A DNA stretch of 32,000 nt from assembly GCA_021650915.1 (NCBI GenBank), contig CP091279.1, positions 1,350,001-1,382,000 on the forward strand. Direction: 5' to 3'. Every line of letters begins with the position of its first letter. The first letter of the stretch is position 1. The stretch comes from Candidatus Brocadia sp. (GTDB taxonomy: Bacteria > Planctomycetota > Brocadiia > Brocadiales > Brocadiaceae). Below are positions 24,048-32,000 of the stretch, in pieces. The position numbers and the translations under genes are program-made. The notes beneath the pieces were generated by a model that had not been told where the DNA came from, ran no database searches, and saw nothing but the letters and a program-made list of their open reading frames with translations.

Positions 24048-24078
24048 TTCTCATCACAAATGTATTTAGGAATTATCA

Positions 24079-24311
24079 CATAACGCAGCACAGCCGCAAC
24101 CAACTTTCCGTTGTGAAAGCGGGAGATTGCTTCGGACAAGACCCTCGCAATGACACGGGCTATGCCTTTGATGACATACGGTACGTTGTCATTGCGAGCG
24201 GAGCGAAGCAATCCTTCTCTTATAAATAAACGGTACCTTCTGATAAGGGGTAAATAGGGTTGTAAAAACCTGCAAAAAAAGAAAGATTTTATACGGCAAT
24301 ATTATAATAAC
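24079..24311 (+). repeat. REP-like hairpin repeat, family A, copy A1
   Basis: Shares cata(a/g)cgc..cacagcc.caaccaa..tt..gaaagcgg.gagattgcttcgg...ccctcgcaatgaca...gtcattgcgag.g.agcgaagcaatc...acggtacc...aaaaaaag.aag.ttttata...aatattataa with copies at 25059 and 28918. Nested inverted repeats: gattgcttcg/cgaagcaatc and ctcgcaatgaca/tgtcattgcgag. Confidence 0.85.
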
Positions 24312-24899
24312 TAAACTGTAACAACTTTATGCGTTTTTTTGGATAAATGGTATAATTTCATTCTCCGTGAAAGGAATCATGCCAAATATTAAGTGTTGCC
24401 GTCACTTTATCAGACATTTTTTGTCCTTTGCATAGACATTGGTGTCTAATTGATATTGAATTTTGAGGCCTTTTTTGTTTGCTCATAAACTATAATCTAA
24501 TTGGTGCAACAGATCTGCAATCTGATTATGGCTTGACTTAGCTCCATTGCGAGCGGAGCGAAGCAATCCTTCTCTTATAAATAAACGGTACCTTCTGATA
24601 AGGGGTAAATAGGGTTGTAAAAACCTGCAAAAAAAGAAAGATTTTATACGGCAATATTATAATAACTAAACTGTAACAACTTTATGCGTTTTTTTGGATA
24701 AATGGTATAATTTCATTCTCCGTGAAAGGAATCATGCCAAATATTAAGTGTTGCCGTCACTTTATCAGACATTTTTTGTCCTTTGCATAGACATTGGTGT
24801 CTAATTGATATTGAATTTTGAGGCCTTTTTTGTTTGCTCATAAACTATAATCTAATTGGTGCAACAGATCTGCAATCTGATTATGGCTTGACTTAGCTC
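24190..24899. repeat. Perfect tandem duplication, 2 x 355 bp
   Basis: 24190-24544 and 24545-24899 are identical base for base by eye, including homopolymer lengths. The next 3 bases (cat, 24900-24902) repeat the first 3 of the unit, giving junction microhomology. The unit comprises the right half of A1 plus 233 bp of the transposase remnant. Confidence 0.9.
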
Positions 24900-25058
24900 C
24901 ATATTCTTCAGTTCATCCGAAATCTTTCTTACGCATCTCAATAGCGGCTTTGGGTCTCCACGAGTAGCTTGCACTATAAGATATTTGACGTCTTTCAGAA
25001 AAGCGGGGTTATTGTTCGTGCTCCGTTTACGTCTATTACCCTTCTTATAGCATTACCG
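24667..25058 (-). pseudogene. ISAzo13-family transposase remnant (internal N-proximal fragment, frameshifted with stops)
   Basis: The minus-strand translation of 25041..24890 gives KKGNRRKRSTNNNPAFLKDVKYLIVQATRGDPKPLLRCVRKISDELKNM. After a frameshift it continues SSHNQIADLLHQLDYSL*ANKK. This parallels the ISAzo13 pattern GGGRKR..DP.L..L..LVEP.TRGDP..PL.W..KS.R.LA..L...GH.VSH..VA.LL..L.(Y/F)SLQANRK. It is bounded by repeats A1 and A2. The 24667-24899 part is duplicated at 24312-24544. Confidence 0.6.
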
Positions 25059-25445
25059 CATAGCGCGGCACCGCCACAACCAAATTTCTTTTATGAAAGC
25101 GGAGAGATTGCTTCGGAAAAGGCCCTCGCAATGACAGCGACCATGCACTTTGATGGCACACTGCACGTTGTCATTGCGAGTGAAGCGAAGCAATCTTTCA
25201 CTCATAAAAAACGGTACCTCTTGAAAGGGGTTTGTGAAAAAACTTACAAAAAAAGGTAACACTTTAGTTTTTTGAAAAAGTAGGGGCGAAGCATTTGCCA
25301 GCTTGGGGTGTGAATACATTTATGCCAATTTATGACAAATGCTTCGCCCCTACACCGTGCGGTAACATCGTTATTATGGTAATTTTTCAAAAAACTAAAG
25401 TGTTACAAAAAAAAGAAGTTTTTATACAGTAATACTATATGAACT
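25059..25445 (+). repeat. REP-like hairpin repeat, family A, copy A2 (interrupted by element B1)
   Basis: Same consensus as A1 and A3. The right tail is split at cttacaaaaaaag | ... | aaaaaaaagaagtttttatac by the 151-bp insert at 25256-25406. Confidence 0.85.
25256..25406. mobile_element. MITE-like element B, copy B1, nested in A2
   Basis: 24-nt perfect terminal inverted repeats: gtaacactttagttttttgaaaaa (25256-25279) and tttttcaaaaaactaaagtgttac (25383-25406). Internal 18-bp perfect hairpin gtaggggcgaagcatttg (25280-25297) with caaatgcttcgcccctac (25336-25353). Flanked by a7g / a8g where the uninterrupted copy A3 has a single a7gg (TSD-like). Confidence 0.7.
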
Positions 25446-26734: not shown

Positions 26735-26808
26735 TGGCTGGGGAACTAGGATTCGAACCTAGACTAAATGATCCAGAGTCATTTGTGCTACCGTTACACT
26801 ATTCCCCA
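26735..26808 (-). tRNA. tRNA-Gln (anticodon CUG), CCA encoded
   Basis: The reverse complement reads TGGGGAA TA GTGT AACGGTA GCAC A AATGA CTCTGGA TCATT TAGT CTAGG TTCGAAT CCTAG TTCCCCA G CCA. It has a 7-bp acceptor stem, 4-bp D stem, 5-bp anticodon stem and 5-bp T stem with a TTCGAAT loop. The anticodon loop is C-T-CTG-G-A. Confidence 0.95.
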
Positions 26809-28907: not shown

Positions 28908-28917
28908 CAACTTATTT

Positions 28918-29140
28918 CATAGCGCAGCACAGCCACAACCAAATTTCCTTTATGAAAGCGGGGAGATTGCTTCGGAAAAGGCCCTCGCAATGACAGCAAC
29001 CATGCACTTTGATGGCCACTGCACGTTGTCATTGCGAATGAAGCGAAGCAATCTTTCACTCATAAAAAACGGTACCTCCTGAAAGGGGTTTGTGAAAAAC
29101 TTACAAAAAAAGGAAGTTTTTATAGAGTAATATTATAAGG
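28918..29140 (+). repeat. REP-like hairpin repeat, family A, copy A3 (uninterrupted reference copy)
   Basis: Begins 11 nt after the dus stop and ends 7 nt before the cbiX-cbiC ATG, so it fills the whole intergenic spacer. The track ORFs 28843..29082(+) and 28874..29059(-) are its translations. Confidence 0.85.
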
Positions 29141-30312: not shown

Positions 30313-30444
30313 CGTAACAATTTAGCTTTTTGAAAAATTCTCTCTGTGAATAATATTGTCTTGTAGGGGCAGGTTTCAAACCTGCCCCTACACAGTAGGA
30401 GAAACACTGCCTTTATTGGAATTTTTCAAAAACTAACGTGTTAC
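30313..30444. mobile_element. MITE-like element B, copy B2
   Basis: Ends are gtaacaatttagctttttgaaaaa (30313-) and tttttcaaaaactaacgtgttac (-30444), similar to the B1 TIRs. The central GC-rich hairpin is gtaggggcaggttt-c-aaacctgcccctac (30363-30391). It abuts the A4 tail at the same cttacaaaaaaa|gtaacac junction seen for B1 in A2. Confidence 0.65.
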
Positions 30445-30527
30445 TTTTTTTGTAAGTTTTTTCATAAACTCCTTTCAAGAGGTACCGTTTTTTATGAGTG
30501 AAAGATTGCTTCGCTTCACTCGCAATG
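30445..30527 (-). repeat. REP-like hairpin repeat, family A, partial copy A4 (right arm + tail, reverse orientation), truncated by the IS110 element
   Basis: 30445-30527 is the reverse complement of the A segment cattgcgagtgaagcgaagcaatctttcactcataaaaaacggtacctcttgaaagg..ttt.tgaaaaaacttacaaaaaaa. Similarity stops abruptly after ctcgcaatg (30519-30527). Confidence 0.8.
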
Positions 30528-30666
30528 GTAATATGAAAAAGCAGCGTCCTTCCAAGGAGGTTAAAAAGCCTTGAATAGGCGATAACCTTTTGTGATATTA
30601 AATATCATAAAGGCTTTAGACCACCAATTAAGGTGGTAAGTCTTTAAACCTTGGAAAGGAGGCTGT

Positions 30667-31677
30667 ATGATAAAGTATATAGGATTGGATGCACATTCGT
30701 CAACATGTACATTCAATGTGACGGATGAAAGAGGGAGGGAAGTAGACAACACTACGATTGAGAGCAATGGTCGGCTTTTGGTGAAGTACTTGAGGGGAGT
30801 GGAGGGTGTTAAGAAACTGACCTTTGAAGAGTGTGAATTAAGCAACTGGCTGTATGAGATATTGAGACCTGAAGTAGATGAGTTGATCGTATGCAATCCT
30901 GTAGCAAACGGTGATTACAAGAAGAAAAAGACGGACAAGATGGATGCCAGGAAGCTGTCGAATCTTTTGCGAGGAGGTTTTCTCGTACCGGTATATCATG
31001 ATGGTTCAAAGAGGGAGAGGTTAAGGAGTTTAATGTCCGGGTATCAGGATTTCATTGAAGAGGGTGTGAGGCTAAAGAACCGATACAAATCCTTATTTCG
31101 GAAAAGTGGGAAGAAAATCAAAGGTGAAGCGTTATATAACGACGAGAGTTTCCTGGAAGGATTAGAGCGAAGAGACTTTCAATTTATTGGCACGCAGATC
31201 TATCAGCTTTTAGAGAAGATGGAAGAAGGCAGGCAGGAATATGTTAAAGAGATAGTTCGATGCAGTAAGGGATTTAAAGAGATAAAATATCTCAAGAGCA
31301 TTCCCGGCATTGGGAGTATCCAGGCGGCGAAGATCGTATCACAGGTAATAGACCCGGAGAGGTTTAGCAGTAAGTACAAATATTACAGCTACTGTGGGTT
31401 GGTGAGGCATAAGAGGATAAGTGATGGGAGGGGATATGGGAGTGAAAAGATTTGGGGAAATCGGATATTAAAATGCGTATACAAGATGGCAGGACATTCG
31501 GTTTTAAAGGGTAAGAGCGGTTTAAGGAACTATTACGATACCTTGCGGTTGAAAGGCATCGGTCATGACAATGCCTATAATGCAGTATGTCGTAAGATAG
31601 CGGCAATATCTTTAAGCGTGTGGAGGAAGAGTGAGAAATATAATGACAGACTGATCACTGGCAATCTAATCAAGTAA
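30667..31677 (+). CDS. IS110-family DEDD transposase/recombinase
   Basis: 336 aa. N-terminal RuvC-like DEDD region (YIGLDAHSSTCTF; TFEECELSNW; KTDKMDARKL). C-terminal Transposase_20-type region (LKSIPGIGSIQAAKIVSQVIDPERFSS..YCGLV). AGGAGG lies 4 nt upstream of the ATG. Confidence 0.92.
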   Translation: MIKYIGLDAHSSTCTFNVTDERGREVDNTTIESNGRLLVKYLRGVEGVKKLTFEECELSNWLYEILRPEVDELIVCNPVANGDYKKKKTDKMDARKLSNLLRGGFLVPVYHDGSKRERLRSLMSGYQDFIEEGVRLKNRYKSLFRKSGKKIKGEALYNDESFLEGLERRDFQFIGTQIYQLLEKMEEGRQEYVKEIVRCSKGFKEIKYLKSIPGIGSIQAAKIVSQVIDPERFSSKYKYYSYCGLVRHKRISDGRGYGSEKIWGNRILKCVYKMAGHSVLKGKSGLRNYYDTLRLKGIGHDNAYNAVCRKIAAISLSVWRKSEKYNDRLITGNLIK

Positions 31678-31850
31678 AACAGGGCAAGAAGGCATGAAAG
31701 GCTGGTTCGCACCTGTTTTCTTGAGAGAGGGATGAGATCCACGTGTCATTGACCCAAAGAGGTCCAACGCAATGGTTGATCCGCCCTCGTTTAAATCGAA
31801 AATTACCATGCTCAGCAAAGAGCACCGATAGATGACTGAAAACCGATTGC
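31676..31850 (+). ncRNA. Candidate IS110-encoded bispecific guide RNA (bridge/seek RNA): 5' hairpin + target-binding module + donor-binding module
   Basis: Hand fold. Hairpin 31676-31719 (aaaacagg/cctgtttt). Module 1 (31727-31788): closing helix gaggg.tg.gatc / gatccgccctc, loop strands cacgtgtca (31740-48) and cgcaatggtt (31768-77), inner hairpin 31749-67. Module 2 (31794-31848): closing helix aatcg/cgatt, loop strands aaaattacca (31799-808) and ccgatagatgactgaaaac (31825-43), inner hairpin tgctc-agcaaa-gagca. The loop strands match the insertion site and the IS left end (see findings). Confidence 0.6.
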
Positions 31851-32000
31851 CGAAGGTATTTCAGAGAAGGTAGTAGAAAGAAAACGATAATAATCTGTTT
31901 GTCATTCATGCACTCAGGACTTTATGGCTTGATTAGCCTCAGTTAAGCGGAAGGGACGCATGGCAAGAAAACATTTCTTTGGTTTTTTTGTCAACAGGGA

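What the first reader, a model, noticed from the sequence alone, without database searches (positions are those of the whole stretch)
31676..31850. The IS110 right end folds into two similar internal-loop modules whose strands match its target and its own left end (bridge/seek-RNA-type guide)
This rests on direct sequence observations.

- The 3' loop strand of module 1 (31768-31775, cgcaatgg) is identical to the left insertion junction at 30521-30528 (cgcaa-tg-g).
- The 5' loop strand of module 1 (31740-31748, cacgtgtca) is the reverse complement of tgacacgtg. That sequence is what follows cgcaa in uninterrupted copies of the target repeat. It matches tgacacggg at 24151-24159 at 8 of 9 positions. 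It matches tgacaacgtg on the minus strand of 25164-25173 apart from one extra base. The two strands therefore read CGCAA-TG and TG-ACACGTG and share a TG core.
- The 5' loop strand of module 2 (31799-31808, aaaattacca) is the reverse complement of tggtaatttt. This matches the TG plus IS left end at 30526-30535 (tggtaatatg), with the first 7 positions contiguous and 8 of 10 overall.
- In both modules the CA complementary to the TG core sits immediately 5' of an inner 5-6 bp hairpin with a 6-nt loop, so the register is the same.

One RNA that carries a target-specifying loop and a donor-specifying loop is the mechanism reported in 2024 for IS110/IS1111 recombinases. Here it can be read directly and predicts a programmable 14-nt target. 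I could not confirm the 5'/3' strand assignment against my memory of IS621, and the layout may be mirrored.
Basis: partly seen in the sequence, partly recalled or inferred. Interest (0 to 1): 0.9.

Follow-up and report, generated by a model that had tools for sequence, protein, structure and literature searches.

The report
Bridge (seek) RNA of an IS1111-type element
The stretch after the transposase gene of this Candidatus Brocadia insertion sequence encodes a guide ("bridge" or "seek") RNA whose loops spell out the element's target site and its own ends, a mechanism described in 2024, so this is a well-supported new example and not a new kind of system.

Summary
Window 30526 to beyond 32000 is an IS110-family element of the IS1111 type, about 1,507 bp long, cut about 32 nt before its right end. 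It has a DEDD transposase gene (30667-31677), a 10-bp subterminal inverted repeat, and ends that would form a TTGACA-17-TAATAT promoter on circularisation.

Directly after the stop codon lies a ~190-nt RNA-like element (31670-~31860). It has a 5' stem-loop, a target-binding module and a donor-binding module. All four loop strands match:
- CGTGTCA pairs with TG+ACACG.
- CGCAATG equals CGCAA+TG.
- ATTACCA pairs with TG+GTAAT.
- ATAGATG equals the right end plus TG.

In 71 distinct homologues, 15 of 22 helix pairs show compensatory changes. The two target-loop strands change together with each copy's own flanks (16 different left-guide 5-mers; 30 of 39 non-CGCAA pairs match 5/5).

Corrections: covariation supports a target of about 12 nt (5+TG+up to 5), not 14. 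The "mirrored" strand order is the order published for IS1111-type seekRNAs.

Expression and activity are untested. Verdict: a new member of a known kind, of moderate-to-low interest.

The parts
30521..30525 (+). Left target flank (LT) CGCAA, part of a genomic palindromic repeat
   Evidence: Identical to loop strand 31768-31772. In 62 unique homologue pairs the five positions before the core match the 3' loop strand at 89-100%, against 35-79% when pairs are permuted.
30526..30527 (+). TG core dinucleotide at the left junction
   Evidence: Empty sites read CTCGCAA-TG-ACA with a single TG. Occupied sites read CTCGCAA-TG-GTAAT...ATAGA-TG-ACA.
30528..30666 (+). Left end (LE), 139 nt non-coding. 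It includes the donor right half GTAAT (30528-30532), the -10 half of the junction promoter TAATAT (30529-30534), the subterminal inverted repeat ATGAAAAAGC (30533-30542) and a structured leader.
   Evidence: Alignment of 19 homologous left ends starts being conserved exactly at TGGTAA. The inverted repeat covaries with the right-end copy: ATGGAAA/TTTCCAT, ATAAAAA/TTTTTAT, ATGTAAA/TTTACAT, AAAAGGG/CCCTTTT.
30667..31677 (+). Transposase (bridge recombinase) gene, 336 aa
   Evidence: Pfam PF01548 DEDD_Tnp_IS110 (3.5e-11) and PF02371 Transposase_20 (2.5e-10). NCBIfam NF033542 'IS110 family RNA-guided transposase' scores 131 bits, E 4.8e-38. The clade profile hits the IS621 and ISCro4 transposases in the PDB. 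E54/E55/E57, D90, D93 and S252 are invariant and D8 is conserved in at least 90% of 35 homologues.
31670..31724 (+). 5' stem-loop of the RNA, overlapping the last two codons and the stop codon
   Evidence: Folded. A hairpin is present in 77 distinct homologues (median MFE -17.7 against -12.0 for shuffles) with base-of-stem changes CAAG/CTTG to CGAG/CTCG.
31727..31788 (+). Target-binding module. Outer helices are P1 31727-31731/31784-31788 and P2 31736-31739/31778-31781. The inner hairpin is P3 31751-31754/31761-31764 with loop 31755-31760.
   Evidence: In helices 1-3, 11 of 13 pairs have changes on both sides and 96-99% of cells are paired.
31742..31748 (+). Right target guide (5' loop strand) CGTGTCA, complementary to the top strand TG+ACACG
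   Evidence: The reverse complement matches homologues' own right flanks at +1..+5 with 1.0, 0.97, 0.70, 0.44, 0.44, against permuted 0.94, 0.77, 0.41, 0.24, 0.26. There is no signal from +6 on. Contiguous match from the core is 3.29 against 2.17, z 11.6. Clear retargeted cases include L015/L116 TGAGCATA, L107 TGCGTAAA, L096 TGCTACGG, L113 TGAGTTGA and L106 TGAAAAT.
31768..31774 (+). Left target guide (3' loop strand) CGCAATG, same sense as LT plus core, so it would pair with the bottom strand
   Evidence: Identical to 30521-30527. There are 16 distinct 5-mers among homologues. Of 39 non-CGCAA pairs, 30 match their own flank 5/5 and 38 match at least 4/5.
31789..31843 (+). Donor-binding module. 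The outer helix is P4 31789-31792/31840-31843 (GTTT/AAAC). The inner hairpin is P5 31809-31813/31820-31824 with loop 31814-31819.
   Evidence: In helix 4, 3 of 4 pairs have compensatory changes (GCTT/AAGC, GTGT/ACAC, CTGT/ACAG, ATTT/AAAT). Helix 5 is nearly invariant with one covarying pair.
31802..31808 (+). Right donor guide (5' loop strand) ATTACCA, complementary to TG+GTAAT (core plus LE start, 30526-30532)
   Evidence: The TTAC/GTAA part is matched in 89-100% of 47 unique homologue pairs. Both sides are nearly invariant, so this is a match and not covariation. LE position 5 (T/C/A) shows partial covariation (A with A in 7 of 9). The CA opposite the core is present in only 13 of 47 homologues, and UA in 20 of 47.
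31828..31834 (+). Left donor guide (3' loop strand) ATAGATG, same sense as the RE end ATAGA plus core TG
   Evidence: The RE end ...TTTTTCATAGA-TG is seen in identical copies L001-L003. Both ATAGATG in the RNA and ATAGATG at the right end are invariant across homologues.
31844..31866 (+). 3' tail of the RNA region. It holds a short variable hairpin and a conserved TATTTCA motif. The 3' end is not defined.
   Evidence: Hairpins such as ACCG/CGGT, ACTG/CAGT and TTGAC/GTCAA are seen in homologues by inspection of A2. They were not tested formally.
31867..32000 (+). Remainder of the right end (RE), cut by the window end. The full RE continues with TAATATTTTTTCTTGACATGCTTTTTCATAGA-TG.
   Evidence: Identical copies L001-L003 extend 32 nt plus TG beyond the window's last base. 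They carry the -35 TTGACA and the right copy of the inverted repeat, GCTTTTTCAT.
24146..24157 (+). Unoccupied site that matches the predicted 12-nt target CGCAA-TG-ACACG exactly
   Evidence: Five further CGCAATGACA sites lie at 24187-24196(-), 25127-25136(+), 25169-25178(-), 28986-28995(+) and 29027-29036(-).

Best explanation
Window 30526 to about 32034 (cut at 32000) is an IS110-family insertion sequence of the IS1111 type from a Candidatus Brocadia genome. It is inserted at the TG of a CTCGCAA-TG-ACA site inside a genomic palindromic repeat.

The region 31670 to about 31860, immediately after the transposase gene and on the same strand, encodes its bridge (seek) RNA. The RNA has a 5' stem-loop and then two internal-loop modules built the same way: an outer helix, a 5' guide ending in CA, an inner hairpin, a 3-nt spacer, and a 3' guide ending in UG.

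[quoted passage not shown] Together these read the RE-TG-LE junction of the excised circle.

The recombinase bound to this RNA would then exchange strands at the TG core and insert the element without a target duplication.

Shown here: the sequence matches, the conserved and covarying fold, the co-variation of both target guides with each copy's own flanks, the covarying subterminal inverted repeat, and the junction promoter halves.

Inferred from the published family mechanism: circle formation; transcription from the junction promoter through tnp into the RNA, followed by processing; binding by the recombinase; and strand exchange.
For: - Protein: DEDD_Tnp_IS110 plus Transposase_20 domains. 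NF033542 'IS110 family RNA-guided transposase' at E 4.8e-38. Remote homology to the IS621 and ISCro4 transposases.
- Ends: identical copies give the right end. The circle junction reads TTGACA-17 nt-TAATAT, and a 10-bp subterminal repeat ATGAAAAAGC/GCTTTTTCAT is present. The repeat covaries in homologues.
- All four 7-mers sit in the loops. Two or more of the four occur in 0.09% of shuffles.
- Fold: 22 pairs in 5 helices, 97.2% paired, 15 pairs with compensatory changes, 0 of 500 shuffles as good, slid controls 1-4. RNAalifold independently finds 16 of these pairs.
- Strand: 20 G.U cells against 4 A.C cells, which favours an RNA of the tnp strand.
- Target guides track flanks. The left guide matches at 0.89-1.0 identity at -5..-1, against 0.35-0.79 permuted. 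There are 16 different guide 5-mers, and 30 of 39 retargeted pairs match exactly. The right guide's contiguous match has z 11.6, with clear retargeted cases.
- Near-identical elements (91-94% protein identity, L046-L050) differ at one or two left-guide positions (CGGAA, CAGAA). Three of these five (L047, L048, L049) sit in exactly matching flanks. L046 has one mismatch and L050 has two.
- Strand order (top-strand match 5', bottom-strand match 3') and location downstream of tnp are as published for IS1111-type seekRNAs (PMC11187229; PMC11208160).
- No sigma-70-like + strand promoter lies between tnp and the RNA. This agrees with the published view that the RNA derives from the junction-promoter transcript.
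Against: - There is no expression, binding or transposition evidence for this element.
- This copy's right junction lies outside the window, so its own right flank cannot be read.
- Natural right flanks match the right target guide only partly: a mean of 3.3 contiguous nt beyond the core. The occupied site type (TGACAACGTG) matches the guide for TGACA only.
- The donor guides and donor ends are both invariant in the family, so the donor loop rests on sequence match, position and symmetry and not on covariation.
- In homologues the two bases of the right donor guide opposite the core are CA in only 13 of 47 cases.
- No Rfam family matches.
- The protein falls just under NCBIfam's curated cut-off (131 against 140 bits). 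It is only about 26% identical to annotated plasmid IS110 transposases.
Confidence: 0.9

Rival explanations
1. The conserved right-end region acts as DNA, not RNA. It would be an internal set of transposase-binding sites or decoy copies of the junctions, recognised as double- or single-stranded DNA, and the matches to target and ends would reflect protein-DNA recognition.
For: The loop strands are literal copies or complements of the junction sequences. No transcript has been shown. IS1111 elements do have DNA-level subterminal repeats.
Against: Compensatory changes preserve five helices, which a duplex DNA binding site does not need. G.U cells outnumber A.C cells 20 to 4, which points to a single-stranded RNA of the + strand. 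The published biochemistry for relatives shows RNA from this region co-purifying with the transposase (PMC11187229).
Confidence: 0.04
2. The region encodes a regulatory small RNA or a structured 3' UTR/terminator that controls transposase expression, like Ssr9/Asr9 of ISPpu9, and has no role in site choice.
For: It directly follows the stop codon, and its first hairpin overlaps the stop codon. ISPpu9 carries a downstream sRNA that is not required for transposition (PMC12288879). The left-end leader is also structured.
Against: A regulatory RNA has no reason to covary with the DNA flanking each insertion, yet both target-loop strands do. No terminator-like site was found on the + strand in 31676-31870.
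Confidence: 0.04
3. The matches are chance similarities in an AT-rich non-coding end.
For: Each match is short (7-9 nt), and single-sequence folding is only marginally better than shuffles (z -1.97).
Against: Four independent 7-mers sit in symmetric positions; two or more of the four occur in 0.09% of shuffles. The same positions change with the flanks in dozens of homologues.
Confidence: 0.01

Closest known systems
seekRNAs / bridge RNAs of IS1111-group elements (ISEc11, ISPa11, ISKpn4, ISPst6; Siddiquee et al. 2024, PMC11187229; IS1111 predictions in Durrant et al. 2024, PMC11208160)
   Same: - The non-coding RNA lies downstream of a DEDD transposase gene in a long right end, with a short left end.
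- Subterminal inverted repeats are present.
- The segment complementary to the target top strand lies 5' of the segment complementary to the bottom strand, and the two overlap at the insertion point.
- The target is a palindromic genomic repeat, as for ISPa11 and REP.
- A promoter is formed by joining the ends.
- The total length of about 175-190 nt is a little above the reported long forms of 148-172 nt.
   Different: - The transposase is very distant from cultured-organism IS110-family proteins: about 26% identity to plasmid-borne ones, and below the NCBIfam cut-off.
- The donor-binding nucleotides sit in a simple internal loop that mirrors the target loop. Durrant et al. note a multi-loop for many IS1111 orthologues.
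- The target guides are short (5+2 and at most 5+2).
- Nothing is experimentally shown for this element.
IS621 bridge RNA (IS110 group; Durrant et al. 2024; Hiraizumi et al. 2024, PDB 8WT6-8WT9)
   Same: - The order is a 5' stem-loop, then a target-binding internal loop, then a donor-binding internal loop.
- Each loop carries two guides that read opposite strands and overlap on a 2-nt core.
- The recombinase is small (336 aa here, 326-341 aa for solved relatives) and shares the Tnp domain.
   Different: - The RNA is encoded downstream of the gene, in the RE, not upstream in the LE.
- The strand order within each loop is reversed. [quoted passage not shown] - The core is TG, not CT.
- The subterminal repeat is 10 bp against 2-3 bp.
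- The left guide is 5+2 nt against 8-9 nt.
REP/BIME-targeting IS110-family elements (ISPpu9, ISPpu10, ISPa11)
   Same: Orientation-specific insertion at a fixed dinucleotide at the foot of a hairpin-forming intergenic repeat that is present in many copies in the host genome.
   Different: - The repeat family differs (GAGATTGCTTCG...CTCGCAATGACA, in anammox and other uncultivated lineages).
- ISPpu9 lacks a junction promoter and has extra sRNAs. Here a consensus junction promoter is formed.

Membership tests
IS110 family (DEDD transposase insertion sequences) | Transposase with an N-terminal DEDD RuvC-like domain (PF01548) and a C-terminal Tnp domain (PF02371) | tested here: met
   Both Pfam domains score above their curated cut-offs (43.6/29 and 41/21.3 bits).
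IS110 family (DEDD transposase insertion sequences) | Passes NCBIfam equivalog NF033542 (IS110 family RNA-guided transposase) | tested here: inconclusive
   Full-length match at E 4.8e-38, but 131.2 bits is below the curated 140. This is a divergent clade.
IS110 family (DEDD transposase insertion sequences) | Conserved catalytic acidic residues and the Tnp-domain serine | tested here: met
   E54/E55/E57, D90, D93 and S252 are invariant and D8 is at least 90% conserved in 35 homologues of 63-91% identity. Assignment to the IS621 D11/E60/D102/D105/S241 set is by motif resemblance from my own knowledge, not by structural alignment.
IS110 family (DEDD transposase insertion sequences) | Site-specific insertion at a core dinucleotide, without terminal inverted repeats or target duplication | tested here: met
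   Empty sites read CTCGCAA-TG-ACA and occupied sites read CTCGCAA-TG-[IS]-TG-ACA. The TG/TGG junction is invariant in about 80 homologous left ends.
IS110 family (DEDD transposase insertion sequences) | Circular intermediate whose RE-LE junction forms a promoter | tested here: inconclusive
   Joining the ends gives TTGACA-17 nt-TAATAT, and the TTGAC box is conserved in homologues. The circle itself cannot be observed with these tools.
IS1111 group of the IS110 family | Subterminal inverted repeats of 7-17 bp | tested here: met
   ATGAAAAAGC lies 5 nt inside the left TG and GCTTTTTCAT lies 3 nt inside the right TG. The two copies covary in homologues.
IS1111 group of the IS110 family | Short LE, long RE, with the guide RNA encoded downstream of tnp | tested here: met
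   The LE is 139 nt (30528-30666). The RE is about 355 nt (31678 to about 32032). The RNA lies at 31670 to about 31860.
IS1111 group of the IS110 family | Top-strand target match lies 5' of the bottom-strand match in the RNA | tested here: met
   CGTGTCA (31742-31748, complementary to the top strand) precedes CGCAATG (31768-31774, complementary to the bottom strand). The published criterion is in PMC11187229.
IS1111 group of the IS110 family | Transposase branches with IS1111-group transposases in a phylogeny | not tested
   No reference IS1111/IS110 protein set (ISfinder) was available. tblastn at E <= 1e-5 matched 249 plasmid records, all below 60% identity (about 25-27% for the 25 listed), mostly Rhizobium, Sinorhizobium and Bradyrhizobium and annotated only as 'IS110 family transposase'.
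Bridge RNA / seekRNA | Conserved scaffold with two internal loops flanked by helices | tested here: met
   Five helices, 15 of 22 pairs with compensatory changes, 0 of 500 shuffles as good.
Bridge RNA / seekRNA | Target-loop strands complementary to both strands of the target and covarying with it | tested here: met
   The left guide covers 5 nt plus the core. The right guide covers the core plus up to 5 nt.
Bridge RNA / seekRNA | Donor-loop strands complementary to both strands of the joined IS ends | tested here: met
   ATTACCA against TG-GTAAT and ATAGATG against ATAGA-TG. This holds across homologues, but both partners are invariant, so only weak covariation is available, at LE position 5.
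Bridge RNA / seekRNA | All four guides include the core dinucleotide | tested here: inconclusive
   Met in this element (CA, UG, CA, UG). In homologues the right donor guide has CA in 13 of 47, UA (possible G.U) in 20 of 47 and other dinucleotides in 14 of 47.
Bridge RNA / seekRNA | The RNA is made, binds the recombinase and is required and programmable for recombination | not testable with these tools
   Needs RNA-seq or RACE, co-purification and recombination assays.
Rfam families | Match to a curated covariance model | tested here: not met
   No match at gathering score. Nothing relevant at E <= 10 over 30400-32000.

The most novel reading that the evidence does not exclude
This element may stand for a deep, so far uncharacterised lineage of bridge recombinases from uncultivated bacteria (anammox Planctomycetota, Omnitrophota, Elusimicrobiota and others).

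- It combines IS1111-type layout (RNA in the RE, long subterminal repeats, reversed guide order) with an IS621-like pair of simple, symmetric internal loops and unusually short guides (5+2+5).
- In many members the right donor guide does not pair with the core, which would imply a somewhat different donor-recognition or strand-exchange step.
- The clade also offers a dense natural series of retargeted guides on a nearly fixed scaffold.
Probability: 0.15. Interest if true: 0.5.

Novelty: new member of a known kind. Interest (0 to 1): 0.3.

Why it matters
- It shows that the 2024 bridge/seek-RNA mechanism can be read directly from sequence in a distant, uncultivated-lineage clade of IS110-family elements.
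- It supplies an explicit, covariation-backed map for a 336-aa recombinase: five helices, four guides, core TG, a target of about 12 nt, a 10-bp subterminal repeat and a junction promoter.
- For annotation, the roughly 1.5-kb element and its RNA should be labelled as one mobile unit, and the host's CTCGCAATGACA repeats as its landing sites.
- For engineering, the clade offers at least 16 naturally retargeted left guides on one scaffold. That is a ready-made data set on what this scaffold tolerates.
- It does not change what is known about how these systems work.

Tried and rejected
- **Rfam.** Searches at gathering score and at E <= 10 found no family for the region.
Positions +6 and beyond show no more identity to the flanks than permuted pairs do. 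Rejected in favour of the core plus at most 5 nt.
- **A 1-nt bulge in the target.** Allowing a bulge raises observed and permuted scores alike (z 8.2 against 7.5), so it has no specific support.
- **'Handshake'-like extensions.** The G after CGCAATG and the AC after ATAGATG match the recombinant junctions in this copy. They are invariant in homologues whatever the flanks, so they are treated as scaffold.
- **AATCG/CGATT (31794-31798/31844-31848) as the closing stem for module 2.** It does not hold in homologues by inspection of A2. GTTT/AAAC (31789-31792/31840-31843) covaries and was adopted.
- **An internal + strand promoter for the RNA.** None was found between 31580 and 31730.
- **phmmer of the single protein against the PDB.** It gave only one weak hit. 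The clade profile was needed to reach IS621 and ISCro4.
- **Exact-protein look-up.** It returned only four short contigs that break near the IS ends. They were useful for the right end but gave no genome context.
Full report
**What is at the coordinates.** The window carries an ORF at 30667-31677 (+) of 336 aa. It has the two Pfam domains of IS110-family transposases, PF01548 DEDD_Tnp_IS110 and PF02371 Transposase_20. It also gives a full-length match to NCBIfam NF033542 'IS110 family RNA-guided transposase' at E 4.8e-38, although 131 bits is just under the curated 140. A profile of 35 homologues reaches the IS621 and ISCro4 transposases in the PDB. The exact protein is in NCBI as a transposase of a Candidatus Brocadia MAG. 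It is only about 26% identical to annotated plasmid-borne IS110-family transposases, so this is a divergent clade.

**Element boundaries.** The left flank of the element (30444-30527) is one arm of a repeat that occurs intact at about 24073-24230, 25053-25255 and 28912-29111. The similarity stops at ...CTCGCAA-TG (30519-30527). The intact repeats continue with ACA....

The window ends before the right end. Four short public contigs carry the identical protein and nearly identical DNA. They continue the window's last bases with TAATATTTTTTCTTGACATGCTTTTTCATAGA-TG and then ACAGCGACC... or ACAACGTGC..., which are the right halves of the two repeat arms.

The element is therefore about 1,507 bp and is inserted at a TG that occurs once in empty sites. 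It has a 10-bp subterminal inverted repeat: ATGAAAAAGC at 30533-30542, and GCTTTTTCAT 3 nt inside the right TG. Joining the ends gives TTGACA-17 nt-TAATAT. The LE is 139 nt and the RE about 355 nt. These are the features of the IS1111 group: short LE, long RE, long subterminal repeats, guide RNA in the RE (Durrant et al. 2024, PMC11208160; Siddiquee et al. 2024, PMC11187229).

**Checking the observation.** ATAGATG at 31828-31834, on the 3' side of module 2, equals the last five bases of the IS plus the TG core. The four strands are:
- Module 1, 5' strand: CGTGT-CA, complementary to TG-ACACG.
- Module 1, 3' strand: CGCAA-TG, identical to the left flank plus core.
- Module 2, 5' strand: ATTAC-CA, complementary to TG-GTAAT, the core plus left end.
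- Module 2, 3' strand: ATAGA-TG, identical to the right end plus core.

Both modules have the same register. The 5' guide ends in CA next to the inner hairpin. On the 3' side there is a 3-nt spacer, then five guide bases, then TG. In 200,000 shuffles of the region each 7-mer occurs in 0.8-1.9% of shuffles, and two or more occur in 0.09%.

**Related sequences.** One protein search and scans of genome and metagenome contigs with an alignment of 35 homologues gave 116 further loci. Together with the four exact-match contigs, 120 loci were held. The hosts are Brocadiaceae, other Planctomycetota, Omnitrophota, Elusimicrobiota, Nitrospinota and other bins, with transposases 58-98% identical to the query. 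Ninety-two of the 120 loci carry a recognisable module 1.

The scaffold is strikingly conserved, and the loop strands of module 1 are the most variable part.

**Fold.** On 71 distinct sequences (alignment A2), RNAalifold predicts the outer and inner helices of module 1 and the inner hairpin of module 2. I added the closing helix of module 2 (GTTT/AAAC) after seeing changes such as GCTT/AAGC, GTGT/ACAC, CTGT/ACAG and ATTT/AAAT.

The five-helix structure has 97.2% of cells paired and 15 of 22 pairs with changes on both sides. None of 500 column shuffles reaches any of the five measures, and sliding the partners by 1-3 columns gives only 1-4 such pairs. G.U cells outnumber A.C cells 20 to 4, as expected for an RNA of the tnp strand. 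A 5' stem-loop that overlaps the last two codons and the stop codon is present in 77 distinct homologues, with variable interior and covarying base.

For 62 unique pairs of left guide and own left flank, the five positions next to the core agree in 89-100% of pairs, against 35-79% when pairs are permuted. Positions -6 and -7 agree in 6-8%, so they are scaffold. There are 16 different guide 5-mers. Among the 39 pairs whose guide is not CGCAA, 30 match their flank 5/5 and 38 match at least 4/5.

Close relatives of this very element (91-94% protein identity, L046-L050) carry CGGAA or CAGAA. Three of these five (L047, L048, L049) sit in ...CGGAA-TG or ...CAGAA-TG flanks. L046 has one mismatch and L050 has two.

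For the right guide, agreement is 1.0, 0.97, 0.70, 0.44 and 0.44 at +1 to +5, against permuted 0.94, 0.77, 0.41, 0.24 and 0.26. It is at background from +6. The contiguous match from the core is 3.29 nt against 2.17 (z 11.6). Retargeted examples are unambiguous: TGAGCATA, TGCGTAAA, TGCTACGG, TGAGTTGA, TGAAAAT and TGACTTC.

The target specified here is therefore about CGCAA-TG-ACACG, 12 nt and not 14. An exact, unoccupied copy lies at 24146-24157.

**Donor loop.** ATAGATG in the RNA and ATAGATG at the right end are both invariant. So are TTAC in the RNA and GTAA at the left end. This is a consistent match, but it offers little covariation. At the fifth base of the left end, an A in the DNA goes with the matching base in the RNA in 7 of 9 cases, while C is usually mismatched.

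The two bases opposite the core in the right donor guide are CA in this element but in only 13 of 47 homologue pairs. UA, which could wobble, occurs in 20 of 47. This is a difference from the target loop, where CA is nearly invariant.

**How it most likely works.** The strand order, top-strand match 5' and bottom-strand match 3', is the one reported for all tested IS1111-type seekRNAs and the reverse of IS110-type RNAs.

No sigma-70-like + strand promoter separates tnp and the RNA. For ISEc11 the authors likewise found no promoter other than the junction promoter, and they found a long and a short RNA species. I infer the following sequence:
1. The element excises as a circle.
2. Transcription runs from TTGACA-17-TAATAT through the leader and tnp into the RNA.
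3. The RNA is processed and binds the recombinase.
4. The target loop pairs with CGCAA-TG-ACACG and the donor loop with ATAGA-TG-GTAAT.
5. Strands are exchanged at TG.

Only the sequence relationships, the fold and the covariation are shown here. The rest rests on the published family mechanism.

**Rivals.**
- A DNA-level role is disfavoured by the compensatory changes and by the G.U over A.C bias.
- A purely regulatory sRNA or 3' UTR role does not explain covariation with the flanking DNA.
- Chance is excluded.

**Novelty and score.** Bridge/seek RNAs in the right ends of IS1111-group elements were described in 2024, and Durrant et al. predicted them in 93% of ISfinder IS1111 entries. This is a clean new member from a divergent clade of uncultivated lineages. 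It has some particulars of its own: a simple symmetric donor loop, short guides, variable core pairing in the right donor guide, and a rich natural retargeting series. I rate it a new member of a known kind, with interest about 0.3.

Noticed in passing
window 24190-24899: There is an exact 355-bp tandem duplication (24190-24544 and 24545-24899). The unit starts exactly at the CA (the reverse complement of the TG core) of a minus-strand target-type site, CGCAA-TG-ACAAC at 24185-24196. Read on the minus strand, the new junction is CTCGCAA-TG-GAGCTAAG and the far boundary is GAAGAATA-TG-GAGCTAAG, so the only shared bases are A-TG. The cause could be an off-pathway recombination at TG cores by the bridge recombinase or a microhomology-mediated duplication. 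This is unresolved.
   Followed up: partly
window 24146-24157 (+); also 24187-24196(-), 25127-25136(+), 25169-25178(-), 28986-28995(+), 29027-29036(-): Six unoccupied CGCAATGACA sites lie within 5 kb. The one at 24146-24157 matches the full predicted 12-nt target CGCAATGACACG exactly. The occupied site type matches the right guide only as far as TGACA.
   Followed up: yes
window 24073-24230, 25053-25255, 28912-29111, 30444-30527; flanks of L009, L013, L017, L019, L021, L008: The target is a composite palindromic repeat of about 200 bp built from two inverted units, AGATTGCTTCG-N8-10-CTCGCAATGACA. The same GAGATTGCTTCG...CTCGCAA motif flanks homologous IS copies in bins assigned to Omnitrophota, Planctomycetia and 'Nanoarchaeota'. 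The repeat family, and with it this landing site, is therefore shared across distant lineages. What the repeat does is unknown.
   Followed up: partly
window 30547-30557 with 30649-30660: A long-range pairing in the left-end leader, TCCTTCCAAGG with CCTTGGAAAGGA, abuts and overlaps the Shine-Dalgarno sequence of tnp. It covaries in homologues: CCAAGG/CCTTGG, CCGGGG/CCCCGG, CCGAGG/CCTCGG and CTGAGG/CCTCAG. The mean longest helix is 7.04 against 6.24 when pairs are permuted, with a maximum of 6.65 in 500 permutations. It is probably a translational control structure, comparable to the inhibitory 5' UTR described for ISPpu9.
   Followed up: partly
window 30529-30534 plus right end outside the window (L001-L003): Circularisation would create a consensus promoter, TTGACA-17 nt-TAATAT, across the RE-TG-LE junction. 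The -10 half overlaps the donor right half and the start of the subterminal repeat. TTGAC is conserved in homologous right ends.
   Followed up: yes
window 31960-31990 and homologous right ends: A hairpin followed by a T-run (AAGAAAACATTTCTTTGGTTTTTTTG) lies just upstream of the -35 box. Distant homologues carry a different hairpin at the same place, for example CATGCAAAAT...ATTTTGCATG in L017 and L021 and GGCGGCA...TGCCGTC in L015. It may be the terminator of the tnp-RNA transcript. It was not flagged by the terminator scan.
   Followed up: no
window 25256-25406 and 30314-30400: A second family of palindromic intergenic repeats is present. It has a GTAGGGGC...GCCCCTAC hairpin flanked by inverted GTAACA(C/A)TTTAG(T/C)TTTTTGAAAAA arms (pairs I5 and I6; sequence). 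One copy lies about 130 bp upstream of the IS insertion site.
   Followed up: no
window 26738-26808 (-): A tRNA gene gave the only Rfam match at gathering score in the window (67.3 bits).
   Followed up: no
L117, L119 versus L116, L118, L120: Near-identical IS copies share the same right guide (predicting TGAGCATA). Three of them sit next to TGAGCATAGCTC, but two sit next to TGATATCGGCG. These two are either off-target insertions tolerated with only TGA matched or later rearrangements of the flank.
   Followed up: no
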